5,076 nucleotides of DNA from IMG/VR virus record IMGVR_UViG_3300018478_000044. One strand, written 5' to 3'. Every line of letters starts with the position of its first letter. Positions within the stretch are counted from its first letter, which is position 1. This DNA comes from a virus (lineage: Duplodnaviria; Heunggongvirae; Uroviricota; Caudoviricetes). Below the pieces are notes generated by a model, which saw only the letters and a list, made by a program, of their open reading frames with translations, did no database searches and had not been told where the DNA came from. Shown piece by piece: positions 887 to 4,181 of this stretch. The position numbers and the translations under genes were made by a program.

Positions 887-2692
887 TTATGTTCTGACGT
901 TAATCCCTGTAGCTGCTGGCAACCAGCCATCAGCATCATCATCTAACAGAACATTTGTTATCACTCGCCCTTTATCCGGGCCTTTAGTGCATTTAGCCCG
1001 CTTATACTCCTTTCCGTATTCCGCCATAGCTCCTGGCATATCAGTACCAAAGCGTGTCAGTGATACTGGTTTTCCCAGGCCATGCGCTGACATATAGGCT
1101 AAATAAGCATGATACAGGTATCGCCTCGGGCTAAATGGCACTATTTCCGCATTGCCCACCATCATTCCTTCACATTTAACCAACGACATCAGATAGCCGC
1201 AAAAGTCCACCAGTGAATCACCTTCGCGCTTTATCAACAGCGCTTCTTCTGATTTTTGCTGCTCATAAAGTAGTCTTTTAGCTTCGTCCTGGTCGGTAAA
1301 TCGTGTTAGCAAATGGCGAATCACTACCGCCAGTTCGCCTTCTATCTTTTCCGCCAGCATGGGATCGCGTTCGTTCTCCGGTACGACCTCAGAGAAATTA
1401 AATATCACCCTACGACGCGAGATCCCCCCGCTTCGGTCACTGAATGACATGGCGTTATTGTTTACCGCAAGCACTACTGCCGGAATACGTGTGGAGTAGG
1501 GGGCTTTATGTTTCGGATCAATTGCCACCTTGTCGCCGCCAGTAATTGCCTTAATTCCTGCACCATCGCCAGCGTAGCGAGTCATATCCGGCATGATAAT
1601 CAGCGAAAAGCCAACTACTAACGCGCGTTCCCTTGCGTCTTCCAGAGCCTTCATGCTTGCCGATACTGTGTTGGCCTTACCCGCCAGCATGGTACAAATC
1701 TCAGCCATCACACTTTTACCGCTTCCGCCTGGGCCTGTTACCTCAAGGAATAACTGCCAGTCGTACCGGTTCGCCAGTACCATGAATAATGCCGCCAGTA
1801 CGCGATCAGCTTTACGATCATTATCTGCCACCGAACGACGCAGCCACTTCCAGAAATTCGGCGCATGTGTTGCCAGCGTTTCCCCCTCTGCTGGTGGGCT
1901 GAACGGTAATTCACTGGCATTTAACAACCAGTCATTTTTGTTATGCTCCCGAAAATTTCCCGTCCGGGTATCAAATACCCCGTTACTGAATCCAATAAGA
2001 TTCCTGTCTGCCCCGCCCATAACAGGCAGGCTCAATTTCATTGTGTCTACGGCAAATTTAATGGCGTTTTGCGAATAACTGATTCCAGCATCAATAAAAA
2101 TCTTCGCCATAGACCGCTGGAGTTCCTTATCAGATACAGGCACCCAGACAATTCCGTTGTAATGGTGAACTACATCAGAATCATCATTTATAGCCAGTGC
2201 TCTTCCATAATATTCAAGTAACACTTCCCCTCTCTGGCTGGCTCCCATCTGATTTAGTGCTGGCCTGGATAGGTCAATATTTTTTGTGGCTAATTTCATC
2301 GCTGAAACTTCCCCACTCTCTGCCTGTTCGCGGATCCGTTGCAGGTAGTCGCGCCAGTTTTCCGGCTCCCGGTCGGTGATACCTTTGTATAATTTCGCGT
2401 CCTGTACGCCAGCCAGCGCCAGCTTTTCAGCAATAGCATTGATCTGGATTGGCTCTATCTCCCCCGCGAGATAGACACGCGCAAAGCGGCGTTCATCGTC
2501 GACAATGCGGATATTCGCCAGGTCTGCCAGTTGCTTTGGCCCCAGGTAAACAGGAGGCACGTTATCGCCGTGTTTTCGTCCTTCGCTTTCAATCCAGTGT
2601 TGAGCATGGGCGTAAGCATCCGTCCCGGCAAAAATGATTACCTCAGTGAATTTATCCTTCGGCTGATATTTTAGACTCGGTGCGTTTTTCAC
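887..2692 (-). CDS. Replication protein of the phage/plasmid 'primase P4-family C-terminal' type: D5_N-like region plus SF3 helicase P-loop NTPase plus C-terminal putative DNA-binding region
   Basis: 601-aa ORF. Walker A TGPGGSGKS at residues 319-327 (plus-strand 1712-1738, verified by hand translation). D5_N-like segment FSNGVFDTRTGNFREH upstream of the P-loop. SF3 motif-C-like AVVLAVNNN. Start is GTG at 2692..2690, preceded by SD GGGAGGT with a 5-nt spacer, and overlaps the upstream ORF stop (GTGA). Stop TAA at 889..887. The first ~220 aa are unassigned; I did not recognise a primase catalytic motif. Confidence 0.9.
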   Translation of the reverse strand: MKNAPSLKYQPKDKFTEVIIFAGTDAYAHAQHWIESEGRKHGDNVPPVYLGPKQLADLANIRIVDDERRFARVYLAGEIEPIQINAIAEKLALAGVQDAKLYKGITDREPENWRDYLQRIREQAESGEVSAMKLATKNIDLSRPALNQMGASQRGEVLLEYYGRALAINDDSDVVHHYNGIVWVPVSDKELQRSMAKIFIDAGISYSQNAIKFAVDTMKLSLPVMGGADRNLIGFSNGVFDTRTGNFREHNKNDWLLNASELPFSPPAEGETLATHAPNFWKWLRRSVADNDRKADRVLAALFMVLANRYDWQLFLEVTGPGGSGKSVMAEICTMLAGKANTVSASMKALEDARERALVVGFSLIIMPDMTRYAGDGAGIKAITGGDKVAIDPKHKAPYSTRIPAVVLAVNNNAMSFSDRSGGISRRRVIFNFSEVVPENERDPMLAEKIEGELAVVIRHLLTRFTDQDEAKRLLYEQQKSEEALLIKREGDSLVDFCGYLMSLVKCEGMMVGNAEIVPFSPRRYLYHAYLAYMSAHGLGKPVSLTRFGTDMPGAMAEYGKEYKRAKCTKGPDKGRVITNVLLDDDADGWLPAATGINVRT

Positions 2693-2979
2693 TTCTTACC
2701 TCCCGCAACCAACATTGCCCGGATTTTTTTAATATTCGTGGCTGCACGTCTCGCCACTGCCTGTTGTTTGTTTTCCACCAGAATAAAATCACGATCAAAC
2801 TGACGGCGCGGCATTACGCAGTCATATTCGTAAGCCTCACGGCGGTAGGTGATATTGCCTGGCGTAACGTGACGAATAACCACCCGTCCCCCGCGTCTGG
2901 TGTCCCGGAAAATATCACCGGGGCGGATTTCAGGCCGAGAGAGGCCGCTGGCAGTAAAGCCAGAATTTTTCTTTTTCAT
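2689..2979 (-). CDS. Hypothetical basic 96-aa protein, translationally coupled to the replication gene
   Basis: ATG at 2979..2977 preceded by AGGAAA. Its stop TGA (2691..2689) overlaps the GTG start of the replication gene by 4 nt. Lys/Arg-rich termini (MKKKNSGF..., ...MLVAGGKK). No family recognised. Confidence 0.6.
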   Translation of the reverse strand: MKKKNSGFTASGLSRPEIRPGDIFRDTRRGGRVVIRHVTPGNITYRREAYEYDCVMPRRQFDRDFILVENKQQAVARRAATNIKKIRAMLVAGGKK

Positions 2980-2983
2980 GGTT

Positions 2984-3184
2984 TTATTTTCCTGTCAGCA
3001 GTTCCGGTTTTATTTCCGCACGAATACAAAGTTCAGAAAAAAATTCAGGAGAACCAACAATCTCATTACTTTTCAGTCGGCATTGTGATTTCACTTTCCC
3101 TTTATCCAGGTAAACCAGTACGCGTCCGGTGAAATCATCTGGCACATTAAGCACTACGGGTACATGCACTTCATGATTATGCAT
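2984..3184 (-). CDS. Hypothetical 66-aa protein carrying one copy of the FTGR-type module
   Basis: ATG at 3184..3182 with SD GGAGGA 8 nt upstream. Start overlaps the stop of the upstream 77-aa ORF by 8 nt (ATGCATAA). Contains DFTGRVLVYLDKGKV...SPEFFSELCIRAEIKPEL, which is homologous to both repeats in the 122-aa ORF. Confidence 0.6.
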   Translation of the reverse strand: MHNHEVHVPVVLNVPDDFTGRVLVYLDKGKVKSQCRLKSNEIVGSPEFFSELCIRAEIKPELLTGK

Positions 3185-3410
3185 GGCTTACATCCTCCGT
3201 GAATTTTCTTCTGTAACGCGCCTCTGCCACATATTCCGCATAGTCCGACGCAATACTAAGAATCATTTCACCCTCTGACTTGTAGCCACTGGTATTGATA
3301 AGAAAATATGCAGCTTTCATCATGTCAGCAACGCTCAACAATGCGCCCGATGTATCTTCCGGTGCGCCATCAAATTCCCGTTTCAGGGAATTAAAACGAT
3401 CATCACGCAT
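3177..3410 (-). CDS. Hypothetical acidic 77-aa protein
   Basis: ATG at 3410..3408 preceded by AGGGGGG. Overlaps the stop of the upstream ORF by 8 nt (ATGCGTGA). Its own stop is embedded in the next start (ATGCATAA). No family recognised. Confidence 0.55.
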   Translation of the reverse strand: MRDDRFNSLKREFDGAPEDTSGALLSVADMMKAAYFLINTSGYKSEGEMILSIASDYAEYVAEARYRRKFTEDVSHA

Positions 3411-3768
3411 GTTTACCCCCCTGAATGACCTGATAACCGCAACTGGTCAGCAACTCGATAAATTCCGGCAGTGTGCCGAAACAGCAATCATCACGCAGCC
3501 GTTCGCAGGATACCTCGACGCCGTTTTCGTAGTGACTCACCATACGTCCGGTAAAATGCAGATCATCATCGTGATGGCTCGTTGACGGCTTAATCAGTCG
3601 CGCACGTTCCGCCAGTTCCAGCAATGCTTCAACGCTTCCGGCAATTGCACCATCCGGCAGGTGGTAATTACGCACTATGCGCCCGTTCTCCACATGGACC
3701 AGTAGCTGCCCGGTAAATTTCTCGTCAAACTGAATGCTGTTAAGGTCAGAAATTGACAGGTTATGCAT
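3403..3768 (-). CDS. Hypothetical 122-aa protein with an internally duplicated ~45-aa FTG(Q/R)-ENG module
   Basis: The ORF track starts this ORF at 3786 (MCRRCTM...). I place the start at the second ATG (3768..3766) because it is preceded by SD AGGAGGT with a 5-nt spacer and the longer version would have the SD inside codons 3-5. Two internal repeats: EKFTGQLLVHVENGRIV...AGSVEALLELAERARLIKP and LHFTGRMVSHYENGVEV...GTLPEFIELLTSCGYQV. Confidence 0.65.
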   Translation of the reverse strand: MHNLSISDLNSIQFDEKFTGQLLVHVENGRIVRNYHLPDGAIAGSVEALLELAERARLIKPSTSHHDDDLHFTGRMVSHYENGVEVSCERLRDDCCFGTLPEFIELLTSCGYQVIQGGKHA

Positions 3769-3985
3769 GGTGCACCTCCTGCACATCAGCCATGATAATT
3801 TTTCCGGCCTTATCCAGTGCCTGATCGGCTTTTAGCTGCACAAATGCTAAATAATGGGAGATGCATTCTGATTCTCTGGCTGCGTGTTTATGCGCCACAC
3901 CAGCGATAGCAGAAATCTCAATAAGTGAATCCATCAGCGTTTTGATAGCGTCTACCGCTGCATCAGGCCATGTTGCATTACACAT
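3761..3985 (-). CDS. Hypothetical 74-aa protein
   Basis: ATG at 3985..3983 preceded by SD AGGAGGT. Overlaps the stop of the upstream ORF by 8 nt (ATGTGTAA). C-terminus ...QEVHHA provides the SD for the next gene. No family recognised. Confidence 0.55.
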   Translation of the reverse strand: MCNATWPDAAVDAIKTLMDSLIEISAIAGVAHKHAARESECISHYLAFVQLKADQALDKAGKIIMADVQEVHHA

Positions 3986-4181
3986 GTTCCACCTCCTGGC
4001 GAATACGGGCGGCGAATACCATCACGCAGCCATCAGGAGATTGCTGGCGTGCTTCCTGTTCGCTGGTGGCCTCGATGTGAATTACGCGCGGTTGTGCCGT
4101 GCTCAGGGCGATAAAACGCCAGATGTATTTATTCAGGTTGTGCGAGTCCCGCCCTTGCGGGTGTGTGGTATGATTTAACAT
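3978..4181 (-). CDS. Small 67-aa protein, first gene of the leftward operon; tentatively Icd-like (host cell division inhibitor family)
   Basis: Internal ATG (4181..4179) of the long 3978-5024 open frame, preceded by GAGGT. Product MLNHTTHPQGRDSHNLNKYIWRFIALSTAQPRVIHIEATSEQEARQQSPDGCVMVFAARIRQEVEHV. Length and the ...HIEATSE-EARR...FAAR pattern resemble what I recall of Icd-like proteins in enterobacterial P4-like islands. This is a memory-based family call with no alignment run. Confidence 0.5.
   Translation of the reverse strand: MLNHTTHPQGRDSHNLNKYIWRFIALSTAQPRVIHIEATSEQEARQQSPDGCVMVFAARIRQEVEHV

What the first reader, a model, noticed from the sequence alone, without database searches (positions are those of the whole stretch)
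2689..4181. Six small ORFs plus the replication gene joined by stereotyped overlapping junctions
Four consecutive junctions are 8-nt overlaps of the form ATG-N-N-T-R-A: ATGTGTAA at 3978-3985, ATGCATAA at 3761-3768, ATGCGTGA at 3403-3410 and ATGCATAA at 3177-3184. Each is preceded by a strong SD (CAGGAGGTG twice, AGGGGGG, GGAGGA) located inside the C-terminal codons of the upstream gene, so each upstream protein ends His-Ala or His-Val. The last junction is a GTGA overlap into the replication gene. Such regular coupling implies fixed stoichiometry and co-function. None of the small proteins except the tentative Icd-like one has an obvious family, which makes this cassette the best place in the window for undescribed host-takeover, anti-defence or helper-interference functions.
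Basis: partly seen in the sequence, partly recalled or inferred. Interest (0 to 1): 0.55.

Follow-up and report, generated by a model that had tools for sequence, protein, structure and literature searches.

The report
Coupled small-gene operon of a phage satellite
This is the early/replication operon of a common enterobacterial phage satellite (a PICI-type island), in which real small genes are chained by unusual 8-base start/stop overlaps; the overlap pattern is genuine and conserved, but the element and two of its proteins are already known.

Summary
On the minus strand, six small ORFs and a primase-helicase gene form one chain. It has four consecutive 8-nt overlaps (ATGNNTRA), each behind a strong Shine-Dalgarno site. 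Then come a 4-nt spacer and a GTGA overlap. Randomised sequence gives about 0.01 such junctions; four are observed. All six ORFs are under purifying selection (dN/dS 0.1-0.4).

The region is the Icd-to-primase operon of a Gram-negative PICI satellite integrated at tRNA-Thr. Partial matches occur in about a third of complete E. coli genomes. orf1 is Icd-like.

orf2 to orf5 come from a shuffled pool of small modules. orf3 and orf5 are paralogues whose domain is also found fused to Bro-N antirepressors. Natural fusions link orf2-orf4, orf3-orf4 and orf2-like with the orf3/5 domain. These fusions are toggled by poly-G runs inside the Shine-Dalgarno sites.

The 8-nt rule holds in relatives from other genera (30 of 51 internal junctions), while the junction into the replicase is 4 nt (14 of 17).

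Most likely mechanism: serial translational coupling, gated at the Icd start, which lies behind a conserved leader hairpin. A sibling operon in ECOR61 was reported to cause programmed cell death. Obligate fixed stoichiometry of all the proteins is not supported.

The parts
3978..4181 (-). orf1, Icd-like protein (67 aa from the ATG at 4181, SD GAGGT). First gene of the coupled chain.
   Evidence: NF033153 phage_ICD_like scores 71.6 bits against a cut-off of 25. dN/dS 0.14-0.24. PGAP annotates homologues of 65-68 aa in L029-L038.
3978..3985 (-). Junction 1: ATGTGTAA, an 8-nt overlap of orf1 and orf2, behind AGGAGGTG.
3761..3985 (-). orf2 (74 aa; phrog_5146). It corresponds to the N-terminal half of 154-aa proteins found in other islands.
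   Evidence: (L028/L029 fusion); dN/dS 0.16-0.39.
3761..3768 (-). Junction 2: ATGCATAA, an 8-nt overlap of orf2 and orf3, behind AGGAGGTG.
3403..3768 (-). orf3 (121 aa): a tandem duplication of the phrog_340 domain (beta-beta-beta-alpha, twice).
   Evidence: phrog_340 matches in 2 stretches. The AF2 secondary structure repeats, but confidence is low (pLDDT 52.7). dN/dS 0.10-0.24.
3403..3421 (-). Junction 3: the G6 run (3416-3421) serves as the SD, followed by ATGCGTGA (3403-3410), an 8-nt overlap of orf3 and orf4. A G5 run at this position gives in-frame orf3-orf4 fusions elsewhere.
   Evidence: The fused 196-aa proteins P0002, P0005 and P0012 read ...IQGVNMRDD.... L002 has G9.
3177..3410 (-). 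orf4 (77 aa; phrog_24341, and the C-terminal half of phrog_2512). Predicted to be three helices.
   Evidence: AF2 pLDDT 68.3. dN/dS about 0.17-0.2 at informative divergence.
3177..3184 (-). Junction 4: ATGCATAA, an 8-nt overlap of orf4 and orf5, behind GGAGGA.
   Evidence: A recombination breakpoint coincides with it in the window-versus-L025 comparison.
2984..3184 (-). orf5 (66 aa): a single phrog_340 domain, paralogue of each half of orf3.
2689..2979 (-). orf6 (96 aa): a DUF4222/RgdR-family protein. It follows a 4-nt spacer (2980-2983) and overlaps the replication gene by GTGA (2689-2692).
   Evidence: PF13973 scores 68.4 bits. It shares 52 of 96 residues with the 99-aa DUF4222 protein of an O157 strain. 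dN/dS 0.24-0.48.
887..2692 (-). Replication gene (601 aa): a primase-helicase with D5_N + DUF5906 + Pox_D5 domains. Last gene of the chain.
4210..4255 (-). Conserved leader hairpin followed by single-stranded CTAACCA, about 30 nt upstream of the Icd ATG. Candidate gate of the chain.
   Evidence: 93-100% identical in Erwinia, Kluyvera and Pantoea-like loci. Present in 27 of 40 sources. 3 of 8 pairs covary. No Rfam match.
3978..5015 (-). Long open frame (345 codons) ending in the Icd domain. It is entered through a fifth ATGTGTAA junction at 5008-5015.
   Evidence: The frame has 0 stops, against 14 and 21 in the other two frames; the same holds in 12 other loci.
520..870 (.). Iteron-rich, AT-rich region (GTCTACC repeats) immediately 3' of the replication gene. 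Probable origin of replication.
   Evidence: Read directly from the sequence. Hairpin-like matches appear there. The PICI ori position is described in PMC6092414.

Best explanation
The interval is the Icd-to-primase operon of a Gram-negative PICI-type phage satellite. PICI stands for phage-inducible chromosomal island.

Shown here:
- Six small genes under purifying selection and a primase-helicase gene lie head to tail on one strand.
- No terminator-like site lies between them.
- Each internal start codon sits 8 nt before the end of the preceding gene. It is preceded, at 4-8 nt, by an SD site that is a perfect or near-perfect anti-SD complement, encoded in the last codons of that preceding gene.

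Inferred:
- Ribosomes terminating on one gene re-initiate on the next (termination-reinitiation coupling).
- Output of the whole chain, down to the RgdR-like protein and the replicase, would then depend on initiation at its head.
- The head has two entries. One is the Icd start codon, which lies behind a conserved leader hairpin. The other is a long open frame entered from the upstream Ant/AlpA genes through another junction of the same type. This resembles the nested eta/kil genes of satellite P4.

Why the junctions look stereotyped: each gene module carries its own ribosome-binding site, start codon and first codons. These are read as the C-terminal tail and stop codon of whichever gene lies upstream. 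Modules are exchanged by recombination at or near these joints. Poly-G SD runs slip by one base and so fuse or separate neighbouring genes.

Protein functions:
- Icd-like: a division inhibitor or toxic effector (by family, and from the ECOR61 experiment).
- orf6: an RgdR-type basic DNA-binding protein, always paired with the replicase.
- orf2 to orf5: interacting accessory modules related to the C-terminal domains of Bro/Ant antirepressors. Their targets are unknown.
For: Anatomy and chance test.

No minus-strand terminator-like sites in 2600-5076; one weak promoter-like match.

Coding status: dN/dS 0.1-0.4 for all six ORFs.

Element identity:
- The island lies between tRNA-Thr/int and paoD in E. 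coli N921, with int, an HTH regulator, AntA/B, YlcI, Icd, DUF4222, primase, ProQ and PerC.
- 1846 of 5426 E. coli genomes carry partial matches, but only 98 carry at least 80% of the cassette.
- A packaged capsid-forming PICI, LR881103, has the same operon.
- PICI literature.

Conservation of the rule across genera: internal junctions are 8 nt in 30 of 51 cases; the junction into the replicase is 4 nt in 14 of 17.

Module shuffling; identity breakpoints at junctions; chimeras P0065, P0034 and P0041.

Poly-G toggles:
- G7, G8 and G9 give fusion, 8-nt overlap and 28-nt overlap respectively.
- G5 against G6 at the orf3/orf4 joint.

Fusion links and the Bro-N or DnaG zinc-finger fusions of the orf3/5 domain.

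Gate:
- The leader hairpin is conserved, with covariation.
- The long frame is stop-free in 13 loci.
- The P4 eta/kil logic is quoted in PMC10111431.

Function:
- The ECOR61 six-gene Icd-to-primase locus causes programmed cell death. Suppressor insertions fall in Icd and the next two small genes. Their lengths and 8-nt/1-nt overlaps match the L036/L037 layout.
- RgdR activity.
Against: - Coupling is inferred from geometry only; no expression data were available.
- The strong SD sites could support independent initiation without any coupling.
- The orf5>orf6 joint has a spacer and a weak SD.
- Recombination breakpoints are not confined to junctions; one lies inside orf2.
- The window's orf2 to orf5 are different families from the ECOR61-type middle genes, so the cell-death phenotype cannot be transferred directly.
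- Structure prediction gave no functional lead. orf3 had pLDDT 52.7. orf4 had no Foldseek hit with E<1.
- No PADLOC model matches.
- Icd gave no hit to P4 itself in the phage collection.
Confidence: 0.65

Rival explanations
1. One reading: the six small proteins and the replicase are subunits of one machine, and the overlaps exist to fix their stoichiometry.
For: Tight overlaps are statistically associated with heteromeric complexes (title of PMC10666635). Natural fusions link orf2-orf4, orf3-orf4 and orf2-like with the orf3/5 domain.
Against: Related islands keep Icd and DUF4222 but carry anywhere from 1 to 6 different genes between them. The replicase is exchanged among the DUF5906 primase, DUF927 and RepA-helicase types. 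An obligate seven-part complex would not tolerate this. At most, sub-complexes among orf2 to orf5 are plausible.
Confidence: 0.12
2. The stereotyped junctions are only inherited. Modules arose by duplication and illegitimate or homologous recombination at a shared linker, and the 8-nt overlap has no role in expression.
For: orf3 and orf5 are paralogues. Similar tails (QEVxHx) follow unrelated genes. Breakpoints fall at junctions and chimeric genes exist.
Against: The geometry is maintained across genera at junctions whose sequences differ. There is a position-specific rule: 8 nt internally and 4 nt into the replicase. SD sites are kept at functional spacing. Inheritance and selection for coupling are not mutually exclusive.
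Confidence: 0.15
3. The cassette is primarily an anti-phage abortive-infection or superinfection-exclusion system, with Icd as the toxin and the small proteins as sensors or antitoxins. On this reading it is not a satellite life-cycle operon.
For: The ECOR61 locus with the same Icd...DUF4222-primase architecture caused cell death when a phage accessory gene was expressed. Suppressor insertions mapped to Icd and the two following small genes.
Against: The effect was described as muted when reconstituted and needed all six genes, including the primase. Insertions in a coupled operon are polar. The window's middle genes are other families. No PADLOC hit. The operon also contains the element's replicase and lies next to its ori.
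Confidence: 0.25
4. The small ORFs are chance or mis-called reading frames in a leader region upstream of the primase gene.
For: None beyond their small size and the 'hypothetical protein' annotation.
Against: dN/dS is 0.1-0.4. PHROG families match with E values from 1e-20 to 1e-48. The ORFs are conserved across genera.
Confidence: 0.02

Closest known systems
Gram-negative PICIs (EcCICFT073, O-island 51/CP-933C of E. coli O157, capsid-forming PICIs)
   Same: About 15 kb island at a tRNA gene. It has int, an AlpA-type HTH regulator, a Bro/Ant zone, unidirectional early genes, an RgdR (DUF4222) gene directly before the primase, iterons 3' of the replicase, and PerC and ProQ accessory genes.
   Different: In the papers read here I found no description of the chain of 8-nt overlaps, the poly-G toggles or the leader hairpin. 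This island also has a divergent YlcI/YnfO gene and palindromic operators between the Ant zone and Icd. Helper dependence was not tested.
[quoted passage not shown]
   Same: Six linked genes from an Icd-like gene to a DNA primase. The two genes after Icd are 186 and 192 nt, with 8-nt and 1-nt overlaps, exactly as in L036/L037, which are relatives of the window.
   Different: The middle genes are other families than orf2 to orf5. The trigger, phage orf24, and the phenotype are known only for ECOR61.
Satellite P4 left operon (alpA homologue, nested eta/kil, then small genes and the alpha primase)
   Same: A long frame translationally coupled to the upstream regulator gene, with a short nested gene at its 3' end, followed by small ORFs and the primase. 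Translation of the long frame prevents premature termination (PMC10111431). In an ECOR15 P4-like element the gene after AlpA is annotated as Icd-like.
   Different: No C4, isrK or CI RNA match. No psu/delta/sid genes in the island. The Icd query did not hit P4 in the phage collection.
Phage P1 immI operon (c4 RNA, icd, ant)
   Same: An Icd-family first gene whose translation is needed for the overlapping downstream gene, with control exerted at the icd ribosome-binding site. This is from my own knowledge of the P1 literature and was not checked here.
   Different: No c4-like RNA was detected. The downstream genes here are small modules and a replicase, not ant.

Membership tests
Gram-negative PICI satellite | Integrase at one end, next to a specific att site that prophages do not use | tested here: met
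   In the 96%-identical E. coli N921 locus, a tyrosine integrase abuts tRNA-Thr next to proA. The window itself does not reach the integrase.
Gram-negative PICI satellite | AlpA-type regulator and unidirectional early transcription | tested here: inconclusive
   L001 has a 198-nt HTH gene after int, and all early genes except YlcI/orf9 are on one strand. AlpA is explicitly annotated in the Nissle relative L035. The HTH protein of L001 was not scanned.
Gram-negative PICI satellite | Primase/replicase gene followed by an iteron-containing ori | tested here: met
   D5_N/DUF5906/Pox_D5 protein at 887-2692. GTCTACC iterons at 520-870.
Gram-negative PICI satellite | About 15 kb, with no lysis genes or tail genes | tested here: met
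   The L001 island spans roughly 7.7-22.8 kb of the locus and has no structural or lysis annotations.
Gram-negative PICI satellite | Induction and packaging by a helper phage | not testable with these tools
   Needs experiments. A relative with capsid genes was recovered as an 'induced prophage' particle genome (LR881103).
Icd-like cell-division inhibitor (NF033153) | Score above the curated cut-off | tested here: met
   71.6 bits against a cut-off of 25. Division inhibition itself was not tested.
DUF4222 / RgdR | PF13973 domain above the gathering score | tested here: met
   68.4 bits against a gathering score of 27. 52 of 96 residues are identical to the O157 99-aa protein.
DUF4222 / RgdR | RGD tripeptide at residues 20-22, linked to T3S activation | tested here: not met
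   The window protein has R-P-G-D at 19-22 where O157 has T-R-G-D. The motif is not family-defining (PMC3378721).
P4-family primase (TIGR01613) | Score above the curated cut-off | tested here: not met
   95.8 bits against a cut-off of 108.7. It is related to the family but below the threshold.
Translational coupling by termination-reinitiation | Stop and start overlapping or a few nt apart, with an SD upstream | tested here: met
   Five of the six junctions overlap.
Translational coupling by termination-reinitiation | Downstream translation depends on upstream translation | not testable with these tools
   Requires reporter fusions or ribosome profiling.
ECOR61 programmed-cell-death operon | Six linked genes running Icd ... 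DUF4222-primase | tested here: met
   Architecture matches.
ECOR61 programmed-cell-death operon | The same small genes after Icd (61-aa and 63-aa families) | tested here: not met
   These families (L036 genes 2 and 3) have no homologue in the window.
Catalogued anti-phage defence systems (PADLOC) | Match to any model | tested here: not met
   No hit for any of 10 proteins.
P1 C4 / P4 CI / isrK immunity RNAs | Rfam covariance-model match in the Icd leader | tested here: not met
   No match at E<=1 in the window, and none at gathering score in 10 related loci.

The most novel reading that the evidence does not exclude
The junctions form a plug-and-play system with three elements:
- Conserved SD-ATG-NNT-RA linkers act as recombination joints, letting small accessory modules be swapped into a translationally coupled chain.
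- Slip-prone poly-G SD runs switch neighbouring modules between separate and fused proteins, a heritable and possibly also transcriptional phase switch.
- The whole chain is gated by a structured leader RNA upstream of Icd (hairpin + CTAACCA) that has no match in Rfam.

On this reading the small modules, relatives of Bro/Ant C-terminal domains, would be diversifying sensors or antagonists of helper or competing phage proteins. They would arm the Icd toxin and the replicase.
Probability: 0.15. Interest if true: 0.7.

Novelty: new member of a known kind. Interest (0 to 1): 0.4.

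Why it matters
PICI satellites are present in a large share of enterobacterial genomes. Partial matches to this operon occur in 1846 of 5426 complete E. coli genomes. Yet the genes between the regulator zone and the primase are still annotated as hypothetical.

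This analysis gives a concrete, testable model of how that operon is read: one gate followed by a chain of coupled reinitiations. It groups orf2 to orf5 into two interacting module types, linked by natural fusions to each other and to Bro/Ant antirepressors. It also connects the cassette to the only experiment on a sibling operon, the programmed cell death seen in ECOR61.

It flags two features of more general use:
- poly-G SD runs that toggle gene fusion;
- a conserved, covarying leader hairpin with no match in Rfam.

None of this changes the view of what a satellite is.

Tried and rejected
- **Rfam scans.** The window at E<=1 and 10 related loci at gathering score gave no C4, isrK or other relevant family. 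The only hits were tRNA, IS009 and int-alpA RNA in L001.
- **DNA searches of the phage collection.** The whole window and the leader element gave no match.
- **tblastn of Icd against phages** found only the capsid-forming PICI LR881103, not P4 or P1.
- **PDB sequence searches** for orf1, orf3, orf6 and the 154-aa fusion gave nothing meaningful. The only hits were to designed armadillo repeats at E>0.003, which I treat as noise.
- **AF2 of orf3** gave pLDDT 52.7, so I did not run a fold search on it.
- **AF2 of orf4** gave pLDDT 68, three helices. Foldseek against the PDB gave no hit with E<1.
- **A combined alignment** for the natural orf3-orf4 fusion mis-aligned the short sequences and was abandoned.
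- **The search for homologous proteins** with orf2 and orf4 did not return the 154-aa fusions, so that fusion could not be modelled.
- **PADLOC:** no hits.
- **N-terminal extension of the long Icd frame:** no family match.
- **Antisense partner for the leader:** I searched the same strand of the window for a complement (TGGTTAG) of the CTAACCA motif and found none.
- **Forti et al. 1999** could not be read. The P4 mechanism is cited second-hand from PMC10111431.

Full report
**1. Observation**

Reading the minus strand gives these ORFs:

| Gene | Coordinates | Length |
|---|---|---|
| orf1 | 3978-4181 | 67 aa |
| orf2 | 3761-3985 | 74 aa |
| orf3 | 3403-3768 | 121 aa |
| orf4 | 3177-3410 | 77 aa |
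| orf5 | 2984-3184 | 66 aa |
| orf6 | 2689-2979 | 96 aa |
| replication gene | 887-2692 | 601 aa, GTG start |

- Each lies behind a Shine-Dalgarno (SD) site: AGGAGGTG twice, a G6 run, and GGAGGA.
- The upstream proteins end in HV or HA because the frame reads NAT-GNN-TRA.
- The orf5>orf6 joint is a 4-nt spacer, not an overlap. The orf6>replicase joint is GTGA.
- In 2000 first-order Markov randomisations of the strand, ATGNNTRA with at least 60 open codons on both sides occurred 0.0115 times on average and never more than once. Four are observed.
- No terminator-like site lies on the minus strand between 2600 and 5076.

**2. The ORFs are genes**

- Pairwise Nei-Gojobori estimates against homologues gave dN/dS of 0.1-0.4 for all six at informative divergence. 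The overlapping ends were trimmed first.
- All six match PHROG families with E values between 1e-20 and 1e-48.

**3. What the element is**

- The window matches E. coli chromosomes at up to 96% identity. 1707 records matched the whole window.
- 1846 of 5426 genomes matched the cassette, but only 98 carry at least 80% of it.
- In strain N921 the region sits in an island of about 15 kb between tRNA-Thr/proA and the pao genes. The gene order is: integrase, hypothetical, HTH regulator, AntA/AntB, two divergent small genes (YlcI/YnfO family and orf9), Icd-like, four hypotheticals, DUF4222, primase, ProQ/FinO, PerC and cargo.
- In the window, the replicase is followed by GTCTACC iterons (520-870) and the start of the ProQ/FinO gene.
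- This is the published organisation of Gram-negative phage-inducible chromosomal islands (PMC6092414; PMC10111431; PMC13612085).
- The only phage-collection record with an Icd match is a 16.5-kb capsid-forming PICI recovered from particles. It has the same operon.

**4. Families**

- orf1 is Icd-like (NF033153, 71.6 bits).
- orf6 is DUF4222 (PF13973, 68.4 bits), the family of RgdR (ECs1581/C1493).
  - RgdR is a 99-aa basic protein that binds DNA non-specifically, activates LEE1 and represses motility (PMC3378721).
  - It is said to be encoded by all analysed E. coli PICIs.
  - The window protein shares 52 of 96 residues with the O157 copy.
- So the statement that only Icd has a family is wrong.
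- orf3 is a tandem repeat of the phrog_340 domain, and orf5 is a single copy of it.
- orf2 (phrog_5146) and orf4 (phrog_24341) are the two halves of 154-aa proteins (phrog_2512) in other islands.

**5. A shuffled cassette with a conserved grammar**

- Fourteen further E. coli loci and 23 loci from other genera keep Icd at the head and a small gene (DUF4222 or another family) immediately before the replicase.
- Between these they carry 1 to 6 small genes, drawn from at least ten families.
- The replicase itself is exchanged among three types: DUF5906 primase, DUF927 and RepA helicase.
- Despite this, the junction geometry persists.
  - In annotated E. coli loci the overlaps were 8 nt x29, 11 nt x9 and 4 nt x19.
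  - In the 23 loci from other genera, after removing duplicate junctions, internal junctions were 8 nt in 30 of 51 cases. The junction into the replicase was 4 nt in 14 of 17.
  - For comparison, 4-nt and 1-nt overlaps make up about 45% and 15% of all unidirectional overlaps in prokaryotes (PMC3887535).
- Identity profiles show sharp mosaic breakpoints at the orf3/orf4 and orf4/orf5 joints. Another breakpoint lies inside orf2.
- Database proteins include chimeras (the orf3 N-terminus joined to orf5, P0065) and repeat-to-repeat deletions (P0034, P0041).
- The same tail, QEVxHx*, follows unrelated genes because it is the downstream module's ribosome-binding site read in another frame.

**6. Poly-G toggles and fusion links**

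- At the orf2-like/orf4-like joint:
  - a G7 run gives an in-frame 154-aa fusion;
  - G8 gives the 8-nt overlap;
  - G9 gives a 28-nt overlap.
- At the window's orf3/orf4 joint (G6), G5 alleles encode 196-aa orf3-orf4 fusions. These stand for hundreds of member sequences. L002 has G9 there.
- A profile search of 1.8 billion representatives with the orf3/5 domain found 87 proteins. Among them the domain is fused:
  - to the C-terminus of a Bro-N antirepressor (P0178);
  - to a DnaG-type CHC2 zinc finger (P0221);
  - to orf2-like domains (P0204, P0218).
- An AntA/B fusion was also seen (P0053).
- These fusions support co-function of orf2 to orf5. They place the four proteins in the domain-swapping Bro/Ant network described for satellites.

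**7. How the chain is probably entered**

- About 30 nt upstream of the Icd ATG lies a hairpin followed by CTAACCA (4210-4255).
  - It is 93-100% identical in Erwinia, Kluyvera and Pantoea-like loci whose flanks have diverged.
  - It is present in 27 of 40 sources.
  - It covaries at 3 of 8 predicted pairs.
  - It has no Rfam match.
- The Icd frame is also open for 278 codons upstream. It has 0 stops, against 14 and 21 in the other two frames. It begins at a fifth ATGTGTAA junction (5008-5015).
- The same frame is stop-free for 190-293 codons in 12 other loci, although the translated sequence has no family match.
- In the window it runs antisense to YlcI/orf9. In relatives it shows the translated signature of an antisense YlcI-type gene.
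- This resembles P4. There, the long eta frame is coupled to the alpA homologue, contains the nested kil gene, and must be translated to prevent immunity-dependent termination (PMC10111431).
- I infer, but did not show, that the whole operon is gated at these two entries and then read by serial reinitiation.

**8. Function**

[quoted passage not shown] They regarded the Icd-like protein as the likely effector.
- Their supplement places the suppressor insertions in Icd and the two following genes. These are 186 and 192 nt long, with 8-nt and 1-nt overlaps.
- That is the layout of L036/L037, relatives of the window.
- The window's middle genes belong to other families, so the phenotype is a lead, not a result for this locus.
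- Structure prediction and fold or sequence searches gave no further lead, and PADLOC has no model for any of the proteins.

**9. Verdict**

- The element is a known kind of satellite.
- Two of the six proteins belong to named families.
- The operon type has one published phenotype.
- I did not find the following described in the papers I read: the conserved 8-nt grammar, the SD poly-G fusion toggles, the fusion network among orf2 to orf5, and the leader hairpin.
- Fixed stoichiometry of the whole set is not supported.

Noticed in passing
window 5008-5015 and 3978-5015, minus strand: A fifth ATGTGTAA junction, behind GGAGGGTG, opens a 345-codon frame that ends in the Icd domain. The frame runs codon-aligned antisense through YlcI/YnfO (4387-4584) and orf9 (4642-4839). 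The equivalent frame is stop-free for 190-293 codons in 12 other loci, while the other two frames have 7-25 stops. It resembles the nested eta/kil genes of P4.
   Followed up: partly
window 4210-4255, minus strand: A conserved hairpin followed by invariant CTAACCA lies about 30 nt upstream of the Icd ATG. It is 93-100% identical across genera, present in 27 of 40 sources, and covaries at 3 of 8 pairs. It has no Rfam match, and the same strand of the window has no complementary TGGTTAG.
   Followed up: partly
window 4280-4289, 4303-4312, 4350-4356: Two perfect palindromes, TGTGCGCACA, and a half-site lie between the Icd leader and the divergent YlcI/YnfO gene. YlcI/YnfO looks like a ribbon-helix-helix protein by eye. 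This may be an operator/repressor switch for the operon.
   Followed up: no
window 3416-3421; L028 1632-2096; L035 1336-1771; L038 1941-2377; L002 4922-5290: Poly-G runs that serve as SD sites vary in length (G5 to G9). They convert neighbouring genes between in-frame fusion, 8-nt overlap and 28-nt overlap.
   Followed up: yes
window 4568-4587 and 4823-4842, plus strand: YlcI/YnfO and orf9 both end in ...AKEQE*. The encoding DNA is a repeat, AAAGAGCAGGARTARCC, followed by CACCAGC.
   Followed up: no
window 520-870 and 3-503: Many GTCTACC iterons, including inverted copies, lie in an AT-rich stretch 3' of the replicase. They are followed by a ProQ/FinO-family gene (PF04352, 81.8 bits). An island-encoded RNA chaperone lies next to an operon with a structured leader.
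   Followed up: no
L025-L038 and L002-L024 (junction into the replication gene): There is a position rule: internal junctions are mostly 8 nt, while the junction into the replicase is 4 nt (ATGA or GTGA) in 14 of 17 of those loci. The gene before the replicase (DUF4222, or a 112-123-aa family outside Escherichia) stays in place while the replicase type is swapped.
   Followed up: partly
P0178, P0221, P0053, P0204, P0218 (proteins): The orf3/orf5 (phrog_340) domain occurs fused to Bro-N and AntA/B antirepressor domains, to a DnaG CHC2 zinc finger, and to orf2-like domains.
   Followed up: yes
L031 1598-2830: PGAP annotates a 410-aa 'Icd-like' protein. It reads Icd, then about 240 residues with no recognisable similarity, then orf2-like and orf4-like segments, all in one frame. 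The origin of the middle part was not examined.
   Followed up: no
L001 21244-21312: An int-alpA RNA motif (RF02996, 44.9 bits) lies just downstream of the integrase gene of the island.
   Followed up: no
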